Below, one piece after another: positions 25,197 through 51,731 of a stretch of DNA of 64,000 nucleotides. The DNA is from a virus: the IMG/VR virus record IMGVR_UViG_3300044980_000010, positions 1-64,000 of that record. One strand, written 5' to 3'. The notes below the pieces were generated by a model, which was given only the letters and a program-made list of their open reading frames with translations, had not been told where the DNA came from and did not search any database. Each line of letters opens with the position of its first letter. Positions within the stretch are counted from its first letter, which is position 1. A program made the translations under genes and the position numbers.

Positions 25197-25622
25197 ATGA
25201 AGCGCGACGACCTGATCTACACAGCAGCACTGATCGACGGAGAAGGGTCAGTGCTGCTGCAACATTCCCGTGCAAGTGAACGACGCTCTCCGGCTGTGAC
25301 TGTACCAAGCACAACTTGGTGCTTCATGGTTTATCTGAAGAAGACTTTCGGTGGCGCAGTTTCATCGAAGCGAACGTACAAGAAGAACCACAGCAAGTCG
25401 TGGAACTGGTCTGTGCGATACAATGGAGCCATAGACCTATTGCGACGGGTACTGCCGTACTTGAAGCACCCTGAGAAGAAACGCAGGGCTAGACTTATAG
25501 TTGAGCATTTCAAAGCTGTGACGCCGCGCAACGGTCGGTACACAAAGATTCAGGCCAAGCGCAAAGCAGAGTTTGAGCGAGCCTTTCTTAGCCGCTCTAC
25601 AAGAACACACGTTAACAGGTAG
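25197..25622 (+). CDS. Free-standing single-motif LAGLIDADG homing endonuclease
   Basis: YTAALIDGEGSV motif, FGG, W.WSV, LPYL. Confidence 0.85.
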   Translation: MKRDDLIYTAALIDGEGSVLLQHSRASERRSPAVTVPSTTWCFMVYLKKTFGGAVSSKRTYKKNHSKSWNWSVRYNGAIDLLRRVLPYLKHPEKKRRARLIVEHFKAVTPRNGRYTKIQAKRKAEFERAFLSRSTRTHVNR

Positions 25623-25960
25623 TTGTAGCGTTGTCGGACTCGGCTTCGATGCCGACAGGTCCACCAAGAGCCACAAGGTTGCACCCCGTTGAAAGGCGAT
25701 CACTCAAGATCGTTACGAGGGTGGTCCCGGTTTTGTGGTTCTTGGTGGGCCTGAACTGGATTCGACGGCGACGGGCTAGGACTCACCTGCGTGTCGGATT
25801 CGCCTTGCCACGTTACGGAGAGGCAAACCAAAAATGCTAACGACGGAGTTATTGTCACTGCACCCAAGGCGAAAGCCATGGGCGCAGCCGCAGGCCGCTA
25901 ACCACGGGCTGTAGCTGTGAGTTTCACCCACACGAACCGGGGGCTGGTCCCCCGGACCTC
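25600..25960 (+). ncRNA. ssrA: Circularly permuted (two-piece) tmRNA: acceptor piece ~25600-25666, intervening hairpin 25667-25746, coding piece from 25747
   Basis: GGGCCTG(25747)/CAGGTCC-ACCA(25656-66) acceptor stem with G3-U70; CTGGATTCGAC 5' signature; GAC plus T-arm; tag ORF 25836-25901 ANDGVIVTAPKAKAMGAAAGR; outer boundaries approximate. Confidence 0.88.
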
Positions 25961-25998: not shown

Positions 25999-26164
25999 GG
26001 GGGCGTAGCTCAATGGCAGAGCGCCAAGGGGCACAACCGTGGATGAAGTAAGCAAACAGGCACGCCTGTTCTAGACAGGAAGCCGGGGATCAGAGCGATC
26101 CATAAAAGCTGAAGGCCACACCAGTTGTCCTTGGAGGTTGGAGGTTCGAGTCCTTCCGTCCCCT
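25999..26164 (+). ncRNA. tRNA-like RNA with ~100-nt structured insert replacing the anticodon loop
   Basis: Acceptor GGGGGCG/CGTCCCC, D arm GCTC-AATGGCA-GAGC, stem CCAAG/CTTGG, T arm GGAGG-TTCGAGT-CCTTC; no anticodon loop, no encoded CCA. Confidence 0.8.
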
Positions 26165-26983: not shown

Positions 26984-27117
26984 AGGAGCACCATGAAGAC
27001 GTGGATCAAGAACGTGAAGATGCGTAGGGCCGAGATTGCGATGCTGCACGTGGGCCTCAACAGTGGAGTATGGCACCCCATGGACGTGATCTTCGTGCTG
27101 ACATGGTGGGTGATCGG

Positions 27118-27873
27118 ATGAGTGAAATCATTAACCTCTCATCACCCCCTGCGATCTACGGGGAACAAGTCGCCGGACGCGCAGCGCGTGTTCGCAAGCA
27201 ACTCAAAGATTTGAGCGCGGACGTGAAGTCCTCAACGTTCGACATGGCCGACCTTCTATTCGAGGCACAGGAGAACAACTATCCCACAGCGTGGGGCTAC
27301 GCTTCTCTGCCTGATTACGCAGCCAAGGAGTTAGGGCTGAAGGAACGCAAGGCTCAGTACCTAGCACGCATCACGAAGGTCTGTCTGGCTGTGGGCCTGA
27401 AGCGTGTCGAATACGAACCTGCTGGGATCAGCAAGCTGCGGGAAATCTGCACACTGGACCCTGAGGGCACTTACTGGAACGCTGCCGAGCACGTTTCGGA
27501 GCCGCTGGACGAGCACATCGTGCGGCTGATCCTAGACTCAGACAAGATGAACGTGGATCAGGTGAAGCTGGAAGTAGCGAAGCTGAAGGGGCAAATCGGT
27601 AAGGACCGACGAGTGCTCCGCTCTTACTCAACAGACATCACGACTTGGACAAACGTCATCGACGTGGCAATCGAGCGAGCAAGAAAGTTTCTGGGCAGCA
27701 AAGGGCGCGACGACGGCGGCAATGCCAAGGAGTACTCGGAGGGAGAATGCTACGAGTGCATCTGTGCAGCCTTCAACGCGGACCCGAACTACGATGAAGA
27801 CCCCGGCGACAAACCGGAAGTTCCGACTGAGGAAACTCAGGCACCACCAACCCTACCAATGGAGATAATCTAA
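27118..27873 (+). CDS. Hypothetical helical protein (possible DNA binding)
   Basis: WGYASLPDY...ELGL..RKAQYL HTH-like segment. Confidence 0.55.
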   Translation: MSEIINLSSPPAIYGEQVAGRAARVRKQLKDLSADVKSSTFDMADLLFEAQENNYPTAWGYASLPDYAAKELGLKERKAQYLARITKVCLAVGLKRVEYEPAGISKLREICTLDPEGTYWNAAEHVSEPLDEHIVRLILDSDKMNVDQVKLEVAKLKGQIGKDRRVLRSYSTDITTWTNVIDVAIERARKFLGSKGRDDGGNAKEYSEGECYECICAAFNADPNYDEDPGDKPEVPTEETQAPPTLPMEII

Positions 27874-33404: not shown

Positions 33405-35489
33405 ATGAACAAGGCTGTACCAGCAGAACTGAGTAAGAGCGCCGCCATGGCGTTTGTTATCTCCCAAGGCTGGAACTGGGAAGGCCCCAACGGTGGGCAG
33501 ATTCAAGTCGAGGTGTGCCCCTTCTGCAAGAAGGGCGAGAGCAAGTTCTACATCGCAGTCTGCGATCCAGAGGAGTCAACACGGGATGGTTTATTCTTTT
33601 GCCACCACGGAAGCTGCCAAAAAACTGGTAATCTACGAACCCTCCAAGAACACCTTGGCTTACGGGTGGCTGGAGTCGATTCTCGCAAGGAGTGGGCGGG
33701 AACTAAGGGCGAACAAGAGCAACTGCCTAACGCCGACATGTGCCACGCAAATCTTCTATCTGATGCGGATGCTATGGACTACCTCTTACATGTCCGTGGT
33801 TTCTCAAGAGAGATTATCGAGAAGCAAAAACTTGGATTGGTGCCGCAGCGGTTCTTTCGTGAGGCTGGAACCGTCAAGGCTCTGGTCATCCCATATCTAG
33901 TCAACGGCAACGTGGTGTTTGCAAAATACCGCACTCTGCCGCCGTCACCTAAGGACTTCACGTCTTCAACTGGGTGGGACGCTCCGCTGTACAACGGAGA
34001 GGTGCTGAACGAGGACATCCACGACGTGGTATTCGTCGAGGGTGAGACCAACACAATCTCTCTGCTCAACTACGGCGTCCACAACATTGTGGGAGTGCCG
34101 GGAGCGAACATCAAGAAGGCCACGTGGATCGAGCAGTTGGACAAGATGATCGAGACCGGACTCAAGGTCTACATCCTGTACGACGATGACAAGGTGGGCC
34201 GCAAAGCCGCACAGGAGATCGCCTCGCGCATCGGCTACGACAAGTGCTACCGCATGATGCTGCCTCGTTTTGAGGTGGTGGTCCCTGTGGATCAGTGCAA
34301 GTTGTGCGACAAGGACGGCTGGGCACTGAAGGACGGCATCGACAAGCACTCACCCTGCGATCACAAACGTTTGGGCAAAGACATCAACGAGTGGTTCCAA
34401 CTTGGCGGCGGTACACTGGAAGCCTTCGAGGAAATGAAGAAGGCCGCAGTGCTCTTCGACGTGACAGGCGTCACAGGTATTACGGACGCTCTGCAACAGA
34501 TCGAGGACGAACTGAACGGCAAGGTTGATCTGGCTCCTACGTACACCTCGCAGTACCCCGAGCTAAACAAGCTGGTGGGATTCGAGGACGGCGACATCAT
34601 CGACATCGTTGCGCCGGAGAAGGTTGGCAAGACGACGCTGGGCCTCAACCTGTTAGACCACATGGTCAAGACGTACGGCGAGGATGGACTTCTGGTCTGT
34701 CTGGAGATGACACAAGCGCGACTTGCTAAGAAGTGGGTCTCGTTGGTGACAGGCTGGGAAGACAAGATTGTAGAGGCTGGCACACCTGAAGCAAAGGTGA
34801 AGCTGATTGAGTTGAAGAGTGCAGTGAAGCAGGCGCGTGACATTCAGCAAACGCGCACCGCAGACCTGTACTTCGCGTACCCACAGATGGTGAAGGAACC
34901 TGAGGACGTTTTCAAACTCATCAGGGACTGCATCCGGCGCTACGGCGTCAAATGGGTCATGTTCGACAACGTGCAGCGCCTGTGCGACGACACTCTGAAA
35001 AACCAAGCGCACCGCACGGTTCACATGTCGCAAATCAGCAAAGGGTTCGCAAAGCTGGCGAAGGATTACCGGATCAAGTTGATTCGCATCCTCCAGCCGA
35101 AGCGCATCGAGAAAGGACAGGTCATCACCACGAACGACGTTGACGGCAGCAGCCAAGTCGCCAAAGATTGCGATTGCATGATTACCATGTGGCGCAAGGT
35201 CGTAGGGGAGATGAAGAAGAGCGAGTATGAGGAAGAATCTGAGGGGTTCAAAGAGACCGACATCTCCTTTGAGCCAAAGACAAAACTTACTGTCGGACTG
35301 TCTCGCTATTCTGCTGGGGGTTCGTGTTACGTCTTTTGTGATGGAGCACGTTCTCAGTTCCGATCCTACAAGGAAGAAGAGAAGGCACAGCTAAACGCGA
35401 ACCTTCAGAAGTTCAACAACCTGATCCCGATGGAGTCCGGCGCACAAGTGCCTGTGGCTCCTGCCTCAACAGCAAACATTCCAATCTAA
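33405..35489 (+). CDS. Primase-helicase (Zn finger + TOPRIM + DnaB/gp4-like helicase)
   Basis: CPFC..CHHGSC; VEGE, YDDD TOPRIM; APEKVGKTT Walker A; LEM; DGSS...DCD. Confidence 0.92.
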   Translation: MNKAVPAELSKSAAMAFVISQGWNWEGPNGGQIQVEVCPFCKKGESKFYIAVCDPEESTRDGLFFCHHGSCQKTGNLRTLQEHLGLRVAGVDSRKEWAGTKGEQEQLPNADMCHANLLSDADAMDYLLHVRGFSREIIEKQKLGLVPQRFFREAGTVKALVIPYLVNGNVVFAKYRTLPPSPKDFTSSTGWDAPLYNGEVLNEDIHDVVFVEGETNTISLLNYGVHNIVGVPGANIKKATWIEQLDKMIETGLKVYILYDDDKVGRKAAQEIASRIGYDKCYRMMLPRFEVVVPVDQCKLCDKDGWALKDGIDKHSPCDHKRLGKDINEWFQLGGGTLEAFEEMKKAAVLFDVTGVTGITDALQQIEDELNGKVDLAPTYTSQYPELNKLVGFEDGDIIDIVAPEKVGKTTLGLNLLDHMVKTYGEDGLLVCLEMTQARLAKKWVSLVTGWEDKIVEAGTPEAKVKLIELKSAVKQARDIQQTRTADLYFAYPQMVKEPEDVFKLIRDCIRRYGVKWVMFDNVQRLCDDTLKNQAHRTVHMSQISKGFAKLAKDYRIKLIRILQPKRIEKGQVITTNDVDGSSQVAKDCDCMITMWRKVVGEMKKSEYEEESEGFKETDISFEPKTKLTVGLSRYSAGGSCYVFCDGARSQFRSYKEEEKAQLNANLQKFNNLIPMESGAQVPVAPASTANIPI

Positions 35490-46498: not shown

Positions 46499-47245
46499 TG
46501 GCGAAGACGCCTGCCGAGAAGATCGCTGATTTGATTCGCAAGACGAGCACGGATAACCGTGGCGACTTGTTCCGCGAGATCGCGGTCGCACTGAAGACTA
46601 ACGGCCAAGCGTACACGGCGAAGGGTTTTGATGTCCTCGCCGTGGTCTACGAGAAAGGATTCTGCTAATGTTCGGAAACGACATTGAAGGTCGCTACAAG
46701 CATGACAGCACGTTCCGGCGCGTCGTGGATCAGATGCGTGCTCTGCTTAGTGCCTACCACATCACTCCCGGCGAACTGCGCGAGGCTTCCATCCTAGCCG
46801 CGACGATGCATGAGTCCGAGAACATACGGCCTCTCTACATCCTCAAGTATGACCGGGATGCAATGATTTATCCCATGCGCTTTGACATGAACCCTCCCGC
46901 TTTGTTTGGTGGCGACTCTCGTACAGGTCGGTGGGTGACGAGCACTCCCAACGTAACCGAGCAGGACAAGAAGTCTGAGCCTGAGAAACCCAAGTACAAA
47001 TGCATCTGTAACTACACTGGCACGGTAGCTGCGCTGCATTCTCAGACGTGCAAGGATTACAACTGGTCCGTGACTCACCCCTCGCTGTTCACCGAGCACG
47101 TGTATGGCGAATGGCACAAAGGTCTGGGCAACGACAATGAGTGGCGCATGTGTATACGGTGTCAGATGAGCAGCACCTACATCGAGCACAACAAGATCAC
47201 CACCTGCACTGGCAAGTACGTTCAACCAAAATCATAGGAGGCACC

Positions 47246-48322
47246 ATGGCACTCTTCGGCACAGCCGCTGCACCAAAGAAGCTGGACCTGACAAAACGAA
47301 ATCCCATTCTCGACCCACTGCTCAAGAAGATGCAGGATCGCCTAGTAGGGCAAGGTAACGCCGCAGAGGTGCTGGTTGACATGGTGGCGACTCACCTGTC
47401 AGGTTTCGGTGCTCCCGGTAGGCCAGCAGGCAATGCGCTGCTCCTTGGGCCTACAGGCGCTGGCAAGACGCACGCCGTGGAGGTTCTGTGCGAGGGACTT
47501 GTAGGGGATGCAAAGGGTCTGATCAAAGTAGATTGTGCCGAGTTTCAACACTCGCACGAGATCGCCAAGCTGATAGGCTCGCCTCCCGGCTACCTAGGGC
47601 ACCGCGAGACACCTCCTCTGTTGACTCAGGAGCGCATCAACGCGCTGCACAAAGAGGGCATGCCGTTATCTGTCATTCTCTTCGATGAGATCGAGAAGGC
47701 TTCGGACGCTCTGTGGCAGTTGCTGCTGGGCGTGCTCGACAAAGCCACGCTGACTCTAGGTGACAACCGCGTGACTAACTTCGAGCACTGCATCATTCTG
47801 ATGACCTCCAACCTTGGTGCTAAGGAGATGCACGCCAAGAAGTACGGCTTCAAACAGAGCGAAGAGATCGAAATCATCAACGATGAGAAGAACGAGGAGA
47901 TCGCGCTCTCTGCCGCCAAGAAGCACTTCACGGCTGAGTTCATCAACCGCCTCGATCACATCGTGACGTTCAATACGTTGACCAAGCCGCAGGTGGCTCA
48001 GGTTATGAAGATCGAACTGGACCTGATCCAGAAGATGTTCTGGGACAAGGCGAAGTTCATCTACCAACTCACCCCTGCTGCGAAGTACACGATCTTGGAA
48101 GAGGGCTACAGCATCGAGTACGGCGCTCGCAATCTGAAGCGCGTCATTGAGAAGCGCCTGCGGCTTCCGCTGGCTGGACTAGTGTCCTCTGGGCAGATTT
48201 CACCGGGAGCTACACTGGTCATCGACCAAGCCCACCCGAAGGACAAGCAGTTCGAGTTCATCTCGACCAAGCTGGCCGGGACGAACATCACATTCAAAGA
48301 TGCCGAGGAGGCAATATTATGA
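47246..48322 (+). CDS. Stand-alone ClpA/ClpB D2-type AAA+ ATPase
   Basis: LVGQ, GPTGAGKT, KLIGSPPGYLG pore loop, LFDEIEKA, MTSNLG, EFINRLD, YGARNLKR. Confidence 0.9.
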   Translation: MALFGTAAAPKKLDLTKRNPILDPLLKKMQDRLVGQGNAAEVLVDMVATHLSGFGAPGRPAGNALLLGPTGAGKTHAVEVLCEGLVGDAKGLIKVDCAEFQHSHEIAKLIGSPPGYLGHRETPPLLTQERINALHKEGMPLSVILFDEIEKASDALWQLLLGVLDKATLTLGDNRVTNFEHCIILMTSNLGAKEMHAKKYGFKQSEEIEIINDEKNEEIALSAAKKHFTAEFINRLDHIVTFNTLTKPQVAQVMKIELDLIQKMFWDKAKFIYQLTPAAKYTILEEGYSIEYGARNLKRVIEKRLRLPLAGLVSSGQISPGATLVIDQAHPKDKQFEFISTKLAGTNITFKDAEEAIL

Positions 48323-50840: not shown

Positions 50841-50918
50841 TGGTTGCGGTGGAAGGATTTGAACCTCCGTGATCAGGTTATGGGCCTGCGCTGGAACCGG
50901 ACTCCAGTCTACACCGCA
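50841..50918 (-). tRNA. tRNA-Met(CAT), initiator-like, atypical
   Basis: TGCGGTG/CACCGCA acceptor, anticodon CAT, TTCAAAT loop, CCA. Confidence 0.8.
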
Positions 50919-50921
50919 TCA

Positions 50922-50999
50922 TGGTCAGGATGGCAGGATTTGAACCTGCGACCACTCGCATCCGAGGCGAGGACTCTGGCCAGACTGAGCTACATCCTG
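50922..50999 (-). tRNA. tRNA-Pro(CGG)
   Basis: Full cloverleaf, CCA. Confidence 0.92.
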
Positions 51000-51014
51000 T
51001 TGTTGAAAAAAAAA

Positions 51015-51090
51015 TGGTAGGCATGGATGGGATCGAACCACCAACCAGTGGAATCAGAGTCCACCGTTCTGCCAGTTGAACTACATGCCT
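51015..51090 (-). tRNA. tRNA-Gln(CTG)
   Basis: Full cloverleaf, CCA. Confidence 0.9.
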
Positions 51091-51091
51091 G

Positions 51092-51167
51092 TGGTGGGGA
51101 TGGATGGAATCGAACCACCGACGCGCAGCTTTTCAGACTGCCGCTCTACCAACTGAGCTACATCCCC
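51092..51167 (-). tRNA. tRNA-Phe(GAA)
   Basis: Full cloverleaf, CCA. Confidence 0.93.
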
Positions 51168-51174
51168 GTGTTGC

Positions 51175-51552
51175 TTAGGAAACTTCCTGTGCCGATGTGA
51201 CGTTGCCTGCGGCAGTGCTGATGCTGTTGCCGGACGTTGCCAGCTTAACAGTAAGTGTTGCGTTCTGGCCGGAGCCACTGATGGCGGTGACCACGCCGAT
51301 TGCTGTGACCTGATTCCCGACAGCACCGTAGGACTTTCCGTCGATGCTCACTGCAACGTGGTTTGCGTCCGCCTGATGTTCGTTGGTGTAGGCGTCGTTA
51401 GCTTGGATGTTGAAGGTGCTCGCATCGAACGGTGCCTGTACAGTGACTGTTGCTTTCGATCCCGTGCCGGACACGGACGATACTCTTGCTGTGATGGAGA
51501 CGCTATCATTGACAGCGACCGTGGAGCCGTTCTTGTTGATTCCTGTGCTCAT
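51175..51552 (-). CDS. Beta-rich two-repeat protein inside the tRNA cluster
   Basis: SD AAGGA; duplicated halves VSSVSGTGSKATVTV / VTAISGSGQNATLTV. Confidence 0.7.
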   Translation of the reverse strand: MSTGINKNGSTVAVNDSVSITARVSSVSGTGSKATVTVQAPFDASTFNIQANDAYTNEHQADANHVAVSIDGKSYGAVGNQVTAIGVVTAISGSGQNATLTVKLATSGNSISTAAGNVTSAQEVS

Positions 51553-51570
51553 GTGTTGATCCTTTCAAAA

Positions 51571-51644
51571 TGGCACCCGAGGTTGGACTTGAACCAACAA
51601 CGCAGCGTTTTGGAGACGCGCAGTTTGCTTGAGCCTACTCGGGC
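51571..51644 (-). tRNA. tRNA-Trp(CCA)
   Basis: GCCCGAG/CTCGGGT acceptor, anticodon CCA, weak D arm, CCA end. Confidence 0.82.
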
Positions 51645-51654
51645 AAAACTTTTA

Positions 51655-51731
51655 TGGAGCGACCGGAGAGATTTGAACTCTCGACCTTCCCCATGGCAAG
51701 GGGACGCTCTACCAGACTGAGCTACGGTCGC
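51655..51731 (-). tRNA. tRNA-Gly(GCC)
   Basis: Full cloverleaf, U73, CCA. Confidence 0.93.

What the first reader, a model, noticed from the sequence alone, without database searches (positions are those of the whole stretch)
25836..25901. Non-canonical tmRNA tag (…KAMGAAAGR), possibly paired with a phage Clp ATPase
Seen: after a pk1-like element and an A-rich resume context (CAAAAAT-GCT), the frame reads ANDGVIVTAPKAKAMGAAAGR-stop. It starts like the E. coli tag (AND) but is 21 aa and ends in Gly-Arg. Known: ClpX recognition needs a free C-terminal Ala-Ala, and charged termini stabilise tagged proteins. Inference: the phage tmRNA either rescues ribosomes without dooming the product, or redirects tagged proteins to the phage's own single-ring Clp-type ATPase (47246-48322). 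That would be an orthogonal trans-translation/proteolysis circuit.
Basis: partly seen in the sequence, partly recalled or inferred. Interest (0 to 1): 0.75.

Follow-up and report, generated by a model that had tools for sequence, protein, structure and literature searches.

The report
Phage tmRNA with capped alanine tag
A soil phage that probably infects Acidobacteriota carries its own two-piece ribosome-rescue RNA whose "destroy-me" tag ends in Gly-Arg, not the usual Ala-Ala; every related phage with such a capped tag also carries a one-ring Clp unfolding motor, but nothing yet shows that the motor reads the tag.

Summary
Window 25607-25901 (+) holds a circularly permuted, two-piece tmRNA (Rfam RF04321, 67 bits against a cut-off of 47). 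It resumes at GCU 25836 and encodes ANDGVIVTAPKAKAMGAAAGR, stopping at 25899-25901.

The frame is real. Relatives keep ...KAMGAAAG-x through synonymous changes, and all four Gly codons are used. The last residue varies (R, C, V, A).

The phage is related to Tunturiibacter (Acidobacteriota) podophages. All 33 Acidobacteriota host tags that I read are short and end in [L/Y/I]-Ala-Ala, so the Gly-X cap is specific to the phages.

The ATPase at 47246-48322 is a single ClpC/ClpB D2 ring with a conserved x-Gly-Phe ClpP-docking loop. It belongs to a family found on the chromosomes of more than 588 Acidobacteriota genomes.

- All 11 fairly complete phages with Gly-X tags carry the ATPase.
- All 17 records of 36 kb or more in the phage-only ATPase clade carry a permuted tmRNA.
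- The ATPase also occurs with uncapped AAA tags and in phages with no tmRNA.
- Three complete tmRNA phages lack the ATPase.
- The records are related to each other, so these counts are not independent.

The "orthogonal circuit" is therefore plausible (about 0.3) but not shown. This scan has noted tmRNA with Clp ATPase pairings in other, unrelated phages, equally unproven.

The parts
25607..25666 (+). tmRNA acceptor piece: 3' strand of helix 2, T-arm (loop one base shorter than consensus), acceptor 3' strand CAGGUCC, discriminator A73, encoded CCA
   Evidence: Rfam RF04321 alignment; sequence; the same tRNA-like-domain 3' end is found on viral contig L002
25667..25746 (+). 80-nt intervening segment of the permuted gene, presumably removed in processing. 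Its ends (CCAAGAGCCACAA / UUGUGGUUCUUGG) pair and extend the acceptor stem.
   Evidence: Sequence read directly; insertion in the RF04321 alignment. Removal is inferred from known two-piece tmRNAs.
25747..25835 (+). 5' part of the coding piece: acceptor 5' strand GGGCCUG (G3 pairs with U70), 5' strand of helix 2 (CGGCGAC..., CGUGU), pk1 region, and the A-rich resume context CCAAAAAU
   Evidence: Acceptor-stem covariation across the family: six different compensated stems, all keeping G3:U70 and A73. pk1 not verified.
25836..25901 (+). Tag reading frame: GCU resume codon, 21 codons (ANDGVIVTAPKAKAMGAAAGR), TAA stop
   Evidence: Register from the Rfam alignments; frame conserved with synonymous changes in L052, L053 and L188; Gly-X ends in 8 further phage tmRNAs
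25902..25967 (+). 3' trailer of the coding piece: hairpin CCGGGGG-CUGG-UCCCCCGG (25937-25955) inside an outer stem CCCACACG / CGUAGUGG
   Evidence: Sequence. The same arrangement appears in L053, L052 and L188. The true 3' end is not mapped.
47246..48322 (+). Single-ring Clp/Hsp100 D2-type AAA+ ATPase (358 aa from Met 47246): Walker A GPTGAGKT, pore loop GSPPGYLGH, Walker B ILFDEIEKA, P-loop KKYGF, D2-small domain
   Evidence: Pfam AAA_2 1e-33 and ClpB_D2-small 9e-15; PDB ClpC 3j3t 6e-55 with KKY-GF aligned on NKYVGF; family alignment. The upstream GTG start at 47141 is not conserved.

Best explanation
This is a working phage-encoded two-piece tmRNA of a roughly 104-kb podophage of soil Acidobacteriota. 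It has no SmpB of its own. It must therefore use the host's alanyl-tRNA synthetase, SmpB and EF-Tu to enter stalled ribosomes and add Ala plus the 21-residue tag. The tag is the Ala-rich core A-[M/F]-x-A-A-A of this phage tmRNA family, capped by two extra residues, Gly-X (here Gly-Arg). The cap removes the free Ala-Ala carboxyl end that ClpX reads, so products tagged by the phage are most likely withdrawn from the host's ordinary ClpXP route (inferred). The capped peptide is still under purifying selection, so something probably reads it. The leading candidate, unproven, is the phage's own ClpC-D2-like single-ring ATPase, which has a ClpP-docking loop and would work on host ClpP. Shown here: the RNA, its tag, its conservation, canonical host tags, the ATPase's family and loop, and the co-occurrence counts. 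Inferred: loss of ClpX recognition, and any reading of the tag by the ATPase. The confidence given is for the whole statement with the ATPase only as leading candidate; the tmRNA and its tag alone stand at about 0.9, and the ATPase reading the tag at about 0.3.
For: The tmRNA is real: RF04321 67 bits against a cut-off of 47, with G3:U70, A73, CCA and helix 2 intact. Across the family there are six compensated acceptor-stem variants. Peptide-level selection: in the four closest genomes K-A-M-G-A-A-A-G differs only at third codon positions. Across the 12 Gly-X tags the Gly uses GGC, GGU, GGG and GGA, while the last residue is R, C, V or A. The phage has no SmpB, ClpP or ArfB. Candidate hosts have SmpB, tig-clpP-clpX and one-piece tmRNAs, and all 33 tags read end in [L/Y/I]AA. 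ClpX reads the terminal Ala-Ala-COO- (PMC7652416). Host assignment: the primase-helicase is 46% and 41% identical to those of Tunturiibacter phages Tunturi_3 and Tunturi_4, and the ATPase's best 80 cellular homologues are almost all from Acidobacteriota. ATPase: it matches ClpC D2, and a conserved x-G-F loop sits where ClpC and ClpE carry the VGF ClpP-docking motif (PMC13125188). A predicted complex with a candidate host's ClpP gave weak support: score 0.37, best of 3 controls 0.00. That mark was reached by 51 of 78 solved complexes and 2 of 108 mismatched pairs, but at 0.60 or under by only 5 of the 78 solved complexes and by all 4 mismatches that passed. The runs agree in at least 79% of contacts and the partner's pLDDT is at least 83. 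Similar Clp-ClpP complexes are solved, so the pass may come from likeness. Co-occurrence: all 17 records of 36 kb or more in the phage-only ATPase clade have a permuted tmRNA, against 2.3% of phage genomes in general (PMC9004378). The tmRNA lies about 600 bp upstream of the ATPase on the same strand in G031, G032, G033, G037 and G042. All 11 Gly-X phages have the ATPase, including G065, which was found from the tag pattern alone. The three complete relatives without the ATPase (Tunturi_3, Tunturi_4, G059) have ordinary ...LAA or ...VAA tags.
Against: The ATPase is not specific to capped tags. About ten ATPase-bearing records have tags ending AAA, AAAA or MAA. It occurs without any tmRNA in G005 (98% complete), G019 (93%) and provirus G024, and tmRNA occurs without it. 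With only 3 or 4 ATPase-less genomes, Gly-X against ATPase is not significant (hypergeometric about 0.1, my arithmetic). The records are also related, so the counts are not independent. In this genome the two genes are 21 kb apart. The ATPase family is a chromosomal gene of the hosts, so it may serve an unrelated purpose. No ATPase column in a pore loop tracks tag type. Loss of ClpX recognition is extrapolated from E. coli. The T-loop is one base short, ARAGORN missed the gene, pk1 was not verified, and expression and processing are untested.
Confidence: 0.5

Rival explanations
1. Rescue without destruction. The phage tmRNA frees stalled ribosomes, and the Gly-X cap simply stops all C-terminal-degron proteases, so tagged (mostly phage) products are left alone. 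The ATPase is an unrelated host-derived auxiliary gene.
For: The cap removes the Ala-Ala-COO- end that ClpX needs (PMC7652416). The last residue is free to vary (R, C, V, A), as expected if only blocking matters. The ATPase occurs in phages without tmRNA and with uncapped tags. It is a common host chromosomal gene.
Against: A tag that needs no reader should drift. Instead K-A-M-G-A-A-A-G is kept through synonymous changes, and Gly at -2 is invariant over all four codons. All 11 capped-tag phages keep the ATPase.
Confidence: 0.2
2. It is still an ordinary degron. The Ala-rich stretch near the C-terminus is recognised by host proteases (ClpXP with relaxed specificity, ClpAP, Lon, FtsH or the host's own single-ring ATPase), perhaps after trimming of Gly-X. 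The cap would be a tolerated lineage variant.
For: Capped and uncapped tags alternate among close relatives. For example, G029 (AAAA) is nested among G034, G035 and G041 (AAAAGR) on the ATPase tree. This suggests easy interconversion. Hosts carry a 50%-identical homologue of the ATPase as well as ClpXP.
Against: The cap recurs and persists in two deep subclades, with Gly invariant. None of the 33 host tags read has anything like it. E. coli ClpX depends strongly on the terminal dipeptide and its carboxylate.
Confidence: 0.2
3. It is not a functional tag: a decaying tmRNA gene, a tRNA-like-domain-only decoy that titrates SmpB, or a different resume codon.
For: The T-loop is one base shorter than consensus. 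ARAGORN does not call the gene. The +1 frame is also open in the window (read). A tRNA-like-domain-only phage tmRNA (DS6A) is known to inhibit tmRNA (PMC4131195).
Against: The full tRNA-like-domain identity set is intact. Only the stated frame is conserved, with synonymous changes, across about 30 phage tmRNAs that all start A-[N/T/K/E/D] and end Ala-rich. The Rfam register agrees.
Confidence: 0.04

Closest known systems
Two-piece (circularly permuted) tmRNA of Alpha- and Betaproteobacteria and Cyanobacteria, and of marine phages such as OM43 phage Melnitz (Rfam RF04321, RF01849-51; PMC11915505, PMC9004378)
   Same: Permuted gene order; acceptor piece ending in CCA; an intervening segment; a coding piece with resume codon and tag; G3:U70 alanine identity. 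It scores above the RF04321 cut-off, and its best subtype match is beta_tmRNA.
   Different: It is below the beta_tmRNA cut-off (55 against 84 bits). The likely hosts (Acidobacteriota) use one-piece tmRNA: 60 of 61 genomes sampled, a count that includes two unpublished genomes, G090 and G115. The tag is 21 residues and ends Gly-Arg. The T-loop is one base short. The paper describing the nearest cultured phages (Tunturi_3 and Tunturi_4, PMC11924767) does not mention tmRNA.
E. coli ssrA tag AANDENYALAA and its ClpXP / SspB / ClpAP degradation route
   Same: The tag starts A-N-D, has an Ala-rich C-terminal part, and is added by trans-translation.
   Different: The terminal Ala-Ala-COO- that ClpX reads is buried under Gly-Arg. 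The tag is twice as long. No SspB-like adaptor was found.
ClpC / ClpE / ClpA D2 ring (ClpP-partner Hsp100 unfoldases) and ClpX
   Same: AAA_2 plus D2-small domains; a GYxG pore loop; an x-G-F loop at the position of the ClpC/ClpE VGF P-loop; like ClpX, a single ring.
   Different: There is no N-domain, D1 ring, middle domain or zinc finger. It belongs to an uncharacterised stand-alone D2 family that is abundant on Acidobacteriota chromosomes. Its substrates are unknown.
Other phage pairings of tmRNA with a Clp ATPase noted in this scan (e1-5988688, e1-5997463, e1-4433704, e1-5857519)
   Same: A phage tmRNA with an unusual tag, together with a phage-encoded Clp-type unfoldase.
   Different: Those are unrelated phage lineages with different tags (long or acidic) and different ATPase architectures. 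None shows that the motor reads the tag. They are leads only and were not tested here.

Membership tests
Two-piece (permuted) tmRNA, Rfam RF04321 | Covariance-model score at or above the curated cut-off | tested here: met
   67 bits against 47, E 1e-10 over the 64-kb window
Two-piece (permuted) tmRNA, Rfam RF04321 | tRNA-like domain chargeable with alanine: 7-bp acceptor stem, G3:U70, A73, CCA, T-arm | tested here: met
   GGGCCUG pairs with CAGGUCC, followed by A and CCA. Six compensated stem variants in relatives all keep G3:U70 and A73. One deviation: the T-loop is one base short.
Two-piece (permuted) tmRNA, Rfam RF04321 | Permuted order with an excisable spacer, and helix 2 formed between the two pieces | tested here: met
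   CCA at 25664-25666 lies upstream of the 5' end at 25747. The ends of the 80-nt spacer pair with each other. ACACG/CGUGU and GUUGUCG/CGGCGAC pair between the pieces.
Two-piece (permuted) tmRNA, Rfam RF04321 | Resume codon and short tag frame conserved at the peptide level | tested here: met
   same register, with synonymous third-position changes
Two-piece (permuted) tmRNA, Rfam RF04321 | Pseudoknot pk1 upstream of the resume codon | tested here: inconclusive
   RF04321 does not model it. Comparing four relatives by eye gave no consistent pairing.
Two-piece (permuted) tmRNA, Rfam RF04321 | SmpB partner available | tested here: met
   There is none in the phage. SmpB is present in 3 of 3 candidate host genomes. 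Binding cannot be tested here.
Two-piece (permuted) tmRNA, Rfam RF04321 | Transcript processed into two pieces and active in trans-translation | not testable with these tools
   Needs RNA mapping and tagging assays
ClpX-type ssrA degron | Free C-terminal Ala-Ala (usually [L/V/Y]-A-A-COO-) | tested here: not met
   The tag ends A-A-A-G-R. All 33 host tags read meet this feature.
ClpP-partner Clp/Hsp100 unfoldase (ClpC/ClpA D2-like) | AAA_2 module with Walker A and B, an aromatic pore loop and a D2-small domain | tested here: met
ClpP-partner Clp/Hsp100 unfoldase (ClpC/ClpA D2-like) | ClpP-docking [L/I/V]-G-[F/L] loop | tested here: met
   K-K-Y-G-F aligns on ClpC N-K-Y-V-G-F. x-G-F is conserved in phage and host members. 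The variant here is Tyr-Gly-Phe.
ClpP-partner Clp/Hsp100 unfoldase (ClpC/ClpA D2-like) | Physical docking on ClpP | tested here: inconclusive
   Predicted complex with a candidate host's ClpP: weak support, score 0.37 against a best control of 0.00, with the calibration counts given in the For line. It may reflect likeness to solved Clp-ClpP complexes.
ClpA / ClpC / ClpB proper (two-ring Hsp100) | N-domain plus D1 ring (plus middle domain) | tested here: not met
   The protein is 358 aa and only the D2 module matches. All NCBIfam equivalog scores are far below their cut-offs.

The most novel reading that the evidence does not exclude
An insulated phage tag-and-degrade circuit. The phage tmRNA writes an Ala-rich degron capped with Gly-X. 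Host ClpX cannot read this tag, but the phage's single-ring, ClpP-docking ATPase (captured from the Acidobacteriota host and then diverged) can. The phage would thereby decide which rescued products are destroyed on host ClpP, independently of the host's ssrA/ClpXP system.
Probability: 0.3. Interest if true: 0.8.

Novelty: new variant of a known kind. Interest (0 to 1): 0.55.

Why it matters
Phage tmRNAs are known, but their purpose is not. In this lineage the tag has been altered at exactly the two positions that the host's main tag reader needs, while the rest of the tag stays under selection. Every phage with that alteration also carries a protease-docking unfoldase. This gives a concrete, cheap experiment: reporters ending ...AAA or ...AAAGR, tested with host ClpXP and with the phage ATPase plus ClpP. 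The experiment would show whether phages re-route trans-translation products. If the answer is yes, it would be the first orthogonal degron and unfoldase pair tied to tmRNA, and a useful tool for controlled proteolysis. The work also points to a large, unstudied family of single-ring Clp ATPases in soil Acidobacteriota, and shows that the cultured Tunturi_3 and Tunturi_4 phages carry tmRNAs not mentioned in the paper describing them.

Tried and rejected
- A nucleotide search of the tmRNA region against cultured phages found no match.
- A tblastn search with the ATPase against cultured phages found only hits below 37% identity, so it gave no close isolate.
- Tunturi_3 gp38, annotated 'ATPase', is not a homologue.
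- No one-piece tmRNA is hidden in the ATPase-bearing phages that lack a permuted tmRNA; the hits there were tRNAs only.
A tighter pattern returned 5 records. Four are phages that turned up in my other searches and carry the ATPase. The fifth, L272 (5.8 kb), has no recognisable tRNA-like domain.
- I looked for ATPase alignment columns that separate Gly-X from Ala-Ala tags. Only three columns did, and none lies in a pore loop.
- I looked for a conserved adaptor gene next to the ATPase. The immediate neighbours are conserved only in the closest relatives. The one wider link, gene 27070-27873, looks like a DNA-binding protein and not an adaptor.
- pk1 pairing could not be made consistent by eye.
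- A tag and ATPase complex could not be modelled because the tag is shorter than the tool's 30-residue minimum.
- I considered and rejected the idea that the tmRNA 3' end is an attP remnant of integration into ssrA. The gene is complete, permuted and conserved in relatives that include a lytic isolate.

Full report
**The observation.** Rfam's tmRNA_permuted model (RF04321) matches window 25607-25874 on the + strand with 67 bits, against a gathering score of 47 (E 1e-10 for the whole 64-kb window). beta_tmRNA gives the same register at 55 bits, below its own cut-off of 84. ARAGORN does not call the gene.

Read directly, the parts are:
- The acceptor 3' strand CAGGUCC (25656-25662) is followed by A73 and an encoded CCA (25664-25666).
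- It lies upstream of the acceptor 5' strand GGGCCUG (25747-25753). The two pair over 7 bp and include the alanine determinant G3:U70.
- The ends of the 80-nt spacer pair with each other.
- Helix 2 forms between the two pieces (ACACG/CGUGU and GUUGUCG/CGGCGAC).
- Both Rfam alignments put the resume codon on GCU at 25836.
- One irregularity: the T-loop is one base shorter than consensus.
- I could not verify pk1.

**The frame is translated and selected.** The window is the first 64 kb of a 103,946-bp IMG/VR virus record estimated 94% complete.

Its closest relatives carry the same gene:

| Record (locus) | Tag |
|---|---|
| G001 (L053) | ANDNIVSAPMKAMGAAAGR |
| G002 (L052) | ANENIVVPKAKAMGAAAGC |
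| G055 (L188) | ANDNTVVTPKAKAMGAAAGV |

Within K-A-M-G-A-A-A-G the four genomes differ only at third codon positions. The last codon changes its amino acid (CGC, UGC, GUU).

More distant phages have these tags:

| Record (locus) | Tag |
|---|---|
| G035 (L062) | AETKPLAMAAAAGR |
| G034 (L063) | ATPKRAFAAAAGR |
| G041 (L067) | AKTNTLAMGAAAGR |
| G056 (L190) | ATEKPMVMAAAAGR |
| G065 (L290) | ATTKPRAMAAAAGR |
| G023 (L066) | ANTNVLAMSAAAGA |
| G021 (L069) | ANTNVKAMSASAGA |

Across the set the Gly uses all four of its codons.

Other family members end without the cap: AMSAAA, FAMAA, AMAAAAA, AFAAAA, AMEAAA or AMAAHA. The window's tag is therefore the family's Ala-rich core A-[M/F]-x-A-A-A with a two-residue cap. 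In the cap Gly is fixed and the last residue is loose.

Acceptor stems across the family come in six compensated versions (GGGCCUG, GGGGACG, GGGGGCG, GGGCGUG, GGGGAUG, GGGCUUG). All keep G3:U70 and A73.

**The host and its tags.** The primase-helicase at 33405-35489 is 46% and 41% identical to those of Tunturiibacter phages Tunturi_3 and Tunturi_4. These are podophages of Acidobacteriota from tundra soil (PMC11924767). That paper does not mention tmRNA, but both genomes contain a permuted tmRNA above the Rfam cut-off.

The ATPase's cellular homologues are almost all from Acidobacteriota. In a sample of 61 Acidobacteriota genomes, 60 have a standard one-piece tmRNA. This count includes two unpublished genomes, G090 and G115, whose loci I did not read further.

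All 33 tags that I read end in [L/Y/I]-Ala-Ala and are 8-10 residues long. Examples are ANQQMAYAA, ANDTQFAYAA and ADTQLALAA. Candidate hosts also have SmpB and a tig-clpP-clpX operon. The phage has no SmpB, ClpP or RF-1/ArfB gene.

**The ATPase.** ORF 47141-48322 matches Pfam AAA_2 (1e-33) and ClpB_D2-small (9e-15). It also matches the D2 ring of ClpC and ClpB in the PDB (3j3t, 6e-55).

The N-terminal 35 residues are not conserved.

The family keeps Walker A, the pore loop GSPPGYLGH, Walker B, and an x-Gly-Phe loop: KYGF here, and GFGF, GMGF, GIGF or DLGF elsewhere. This loop aligns with the VGF P-loop of ClpC. That motif docks ClpC and ClpE onto ClpP (PMC13125188).

A predicted complex with ClpP from a candidate host gave weak support only:
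- The score was 0.37 and the best of 3 controls was 0.00.
- The mark was reached by 51 of 78 solved complexes and 2 of 108 mismatched pairs.
- At 0.60 or under it was reached by only 5 of the 78 solved complexes and by all 4 mismatches that passed.
- The runs agree in at least 79% of contacts, and the partner's pLDDT is at least 83.
- Because Clp-ClpP complexes are solved, this may reflect likeness and not binding.

The family is not a phage invention. More than 588 stretches in bacterial genomes encode relatives. The best 80 are 46-52% identical, almost all from Acidobacteriota, and many lie on megabase-sized contigs. In one complete chromosome the neighbours are fpg, an M13 peptidase and a DUF4015 hydrolase. 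An earlier follow-up in this scan (e1-930619) described the same host family.

**Co-occurrence.** Searching IMG/VR with the ATPase gave 49 viral loci. Of these records, 19 have a permuted tmRNA above the cut-off.

A FastTree of 130 ATPases shows:
- There is a phage-only clade of 24 rows that includes the window.
- Every record of 36 kb or more in that clade has the tmRNA: 16 records, or 17 with G065, which was found later from the tag pattern alone.
- The clade members without a tmRNA are fragments of 10-35 kb.
- In G031, G032, G033, G037 and G042 the tmRNA lies about 600 bp upstream of the ATPase on the same strand. Four of these five are near-identical.
- Other viral ATPases nest inside host clades. 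At least four changes of the viral/host label are forced by well-supported branches.
- Among those, G005 (98% complete), G019 (93%) and provirus G024 have no tmRNA of either form. The jumbo records G018, G012, G030 and G015 have both genes.

Sampling by primase instead of ATPase, tmRNA is present in all four complete relatives. The ATPase is missing from G059 (109 kb, terminal repeats, tag ...GQLSVAA) and from Tunturi_3 (...FATMLAA) and Tunturi_4 (...NRYAVAA).

The table is therefore:
- Gly-X tags: 11 of 11 have the ATPase.
- Complete phages without the ATPase: 3 of 3 have ordinary xAA tags.
- About ten ATPase-bearing records have uncapped AAA, AAAA or MAA tags.

With so few ATPase-less genomes this is not significant (about 0.1 by my own hypergeometric arithmetic). 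The records also share ancestry. The general rate of tmRNA in phage genomes is 2.3% (PMC9004378). Within this lineage tmRNA is close to a core gene, so the enrichment says little by itself.

**Reading.** The secure part is a functional-looking phage two-piece tmRNA that depends on host SmpB and alanyl-tRNA synthetase, with a tag that selection maintains.

The cap hides the Ala-Ala carboxyl end that E. coli ClpX reads (PMC7652416). No host tag has such a cap. Escape from the host ClpXP route is therefore the most economical consequence, though it is extrapolated from E. coli.

The capped peptide, including Gly at -2, is still conserved through synonymous change. A tag with no reader is therefore less likely than a tag with a different reader. 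The phage ATPase is the best candidate reader: it is a ClpP-docking unfoldase, it is present in every capped-tag phage, and it sits next to the tmRNA in one subclade.

The evidence is circumstantial and runs one way. The ATPase also occurs with uncapped tags and without tmRNA, and no ATPase pore-loop column tracks tag type. I put the full 'orthogonal circuit' at about 0.3, rescue without degradation at about 0.2, and an ordinary degron with a tolerated cap at about 0.2.

**Novelty.** Phage two-piece tmRNAs are documented: 53 were called two-piece among 133 unique phage tmRNAs in PMC9004378, and the 2025 database holds 79 unique phage tmRNA sequences of all forms (PMC11915505). Clp ATPases in phages are also known.

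What I did not find described:
- This Acidobacteriota-phage tmRNA lineage.
- Its recurrent Gly-X cap.
- Its contrast with uniformly canonical host tags.
- The pairing with a host-derived single-ring, ClpP-docking ATPase.

A full-text search for 'phage-encoded tmRNA' found nothing. I file this as a new variant of a known kind.

Earlier notes of this scan report tmRNA with Clp ATPase pairings in unrelated phages (e1-5988688, e1-5997463, e1-4433704, e1-5857519). None was resolved. I treat them as leads, not evidence.

Noticed in passing
window 25999-26164 (+): A tRNA scaffold with good acceptor, D and T arms (Rfam tRNA 45.9 bits) has a 101-nt insert where the anticodon loop should be. It starts about 100 nt after the tag's stop codon (25901). 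Tunturi_3 has a partial tRNA-like element in the same position (L080 1323-1380). The insert is too short for a group I intron.
   Followed up: partly
window 27070-27873 (+): This 267-aa protein has only weak leads to HTH / DUF3102 / ParB-like families. Its homologues lie directly upstream of the ATPase, on the same strand, in seven relatives (L036, L043, L322, L037, L046, L023, L031). Here it lies 1.1 kb after the tmRNA and 20 kb from the ATPase.
   Followed up: partly
L079 / PP885687.1 43532-44293 (Tunturiibacter phage Tunturi_4): A permuted tmRNA abuts an RF-1-domain (ArfB-like) gene, gp53. That puts two ribosome-rescue functions side by side in a cultured phage. The published description does not mention the tmRNA.
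   Followed up: partly
L054, L057, L060, L061, L063, L064, L066, L069, L191, L080 (after the tag stop): 13 of 29 phage tmRNAs carry, just after the tag, a hairpin whose loop holds the motif YYNxAACAGAA (for example CUUGGAAACAGAA). The window's tmRNA lacks it. Its function is unknown.
   Followed up: no
L002 4850-5126 (-), IMGVR_UViG_3300021467_000042: A one-piece, 277-nt mini tmRNA (RF00023, 60.9 bits). Its T-arm and acceptor 3' end match the window's two-piece gene exactly over 31 nt, and its 5' acceptor stem is also GGGCCUG. One possible tag frame shares AKAKA with the window's tag. Together they form a one-piece / two-piece pair that could show how the permutation arose.
   Followed up: partly
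window 25197-25622 (+): An HNH endonuclease gene (phrog_5046, 1.6e-19) ends 16 nt inside the 5' end of the tmRNA gene.
   Followed up: no
L097 9968-11146 and 79 other genome loci (L081-L160): The stand-alone Clp D2 ATPase with an x-G-F loop is a chromosomal gene in more than 588 genomes, nearly all Acidobacteriota. It sits among housekeeping genes and is not next to clpP or ssrA. The family is large and apparently unstudied.
   Followed up: partly
window 50841-51731 (-): A cluster of six tRNA genes (Arg-GCG, Pro-CGG, Gln-CUG, Phe-GAA, Trp-CCA, Gly-GCC).
   Followed up: no
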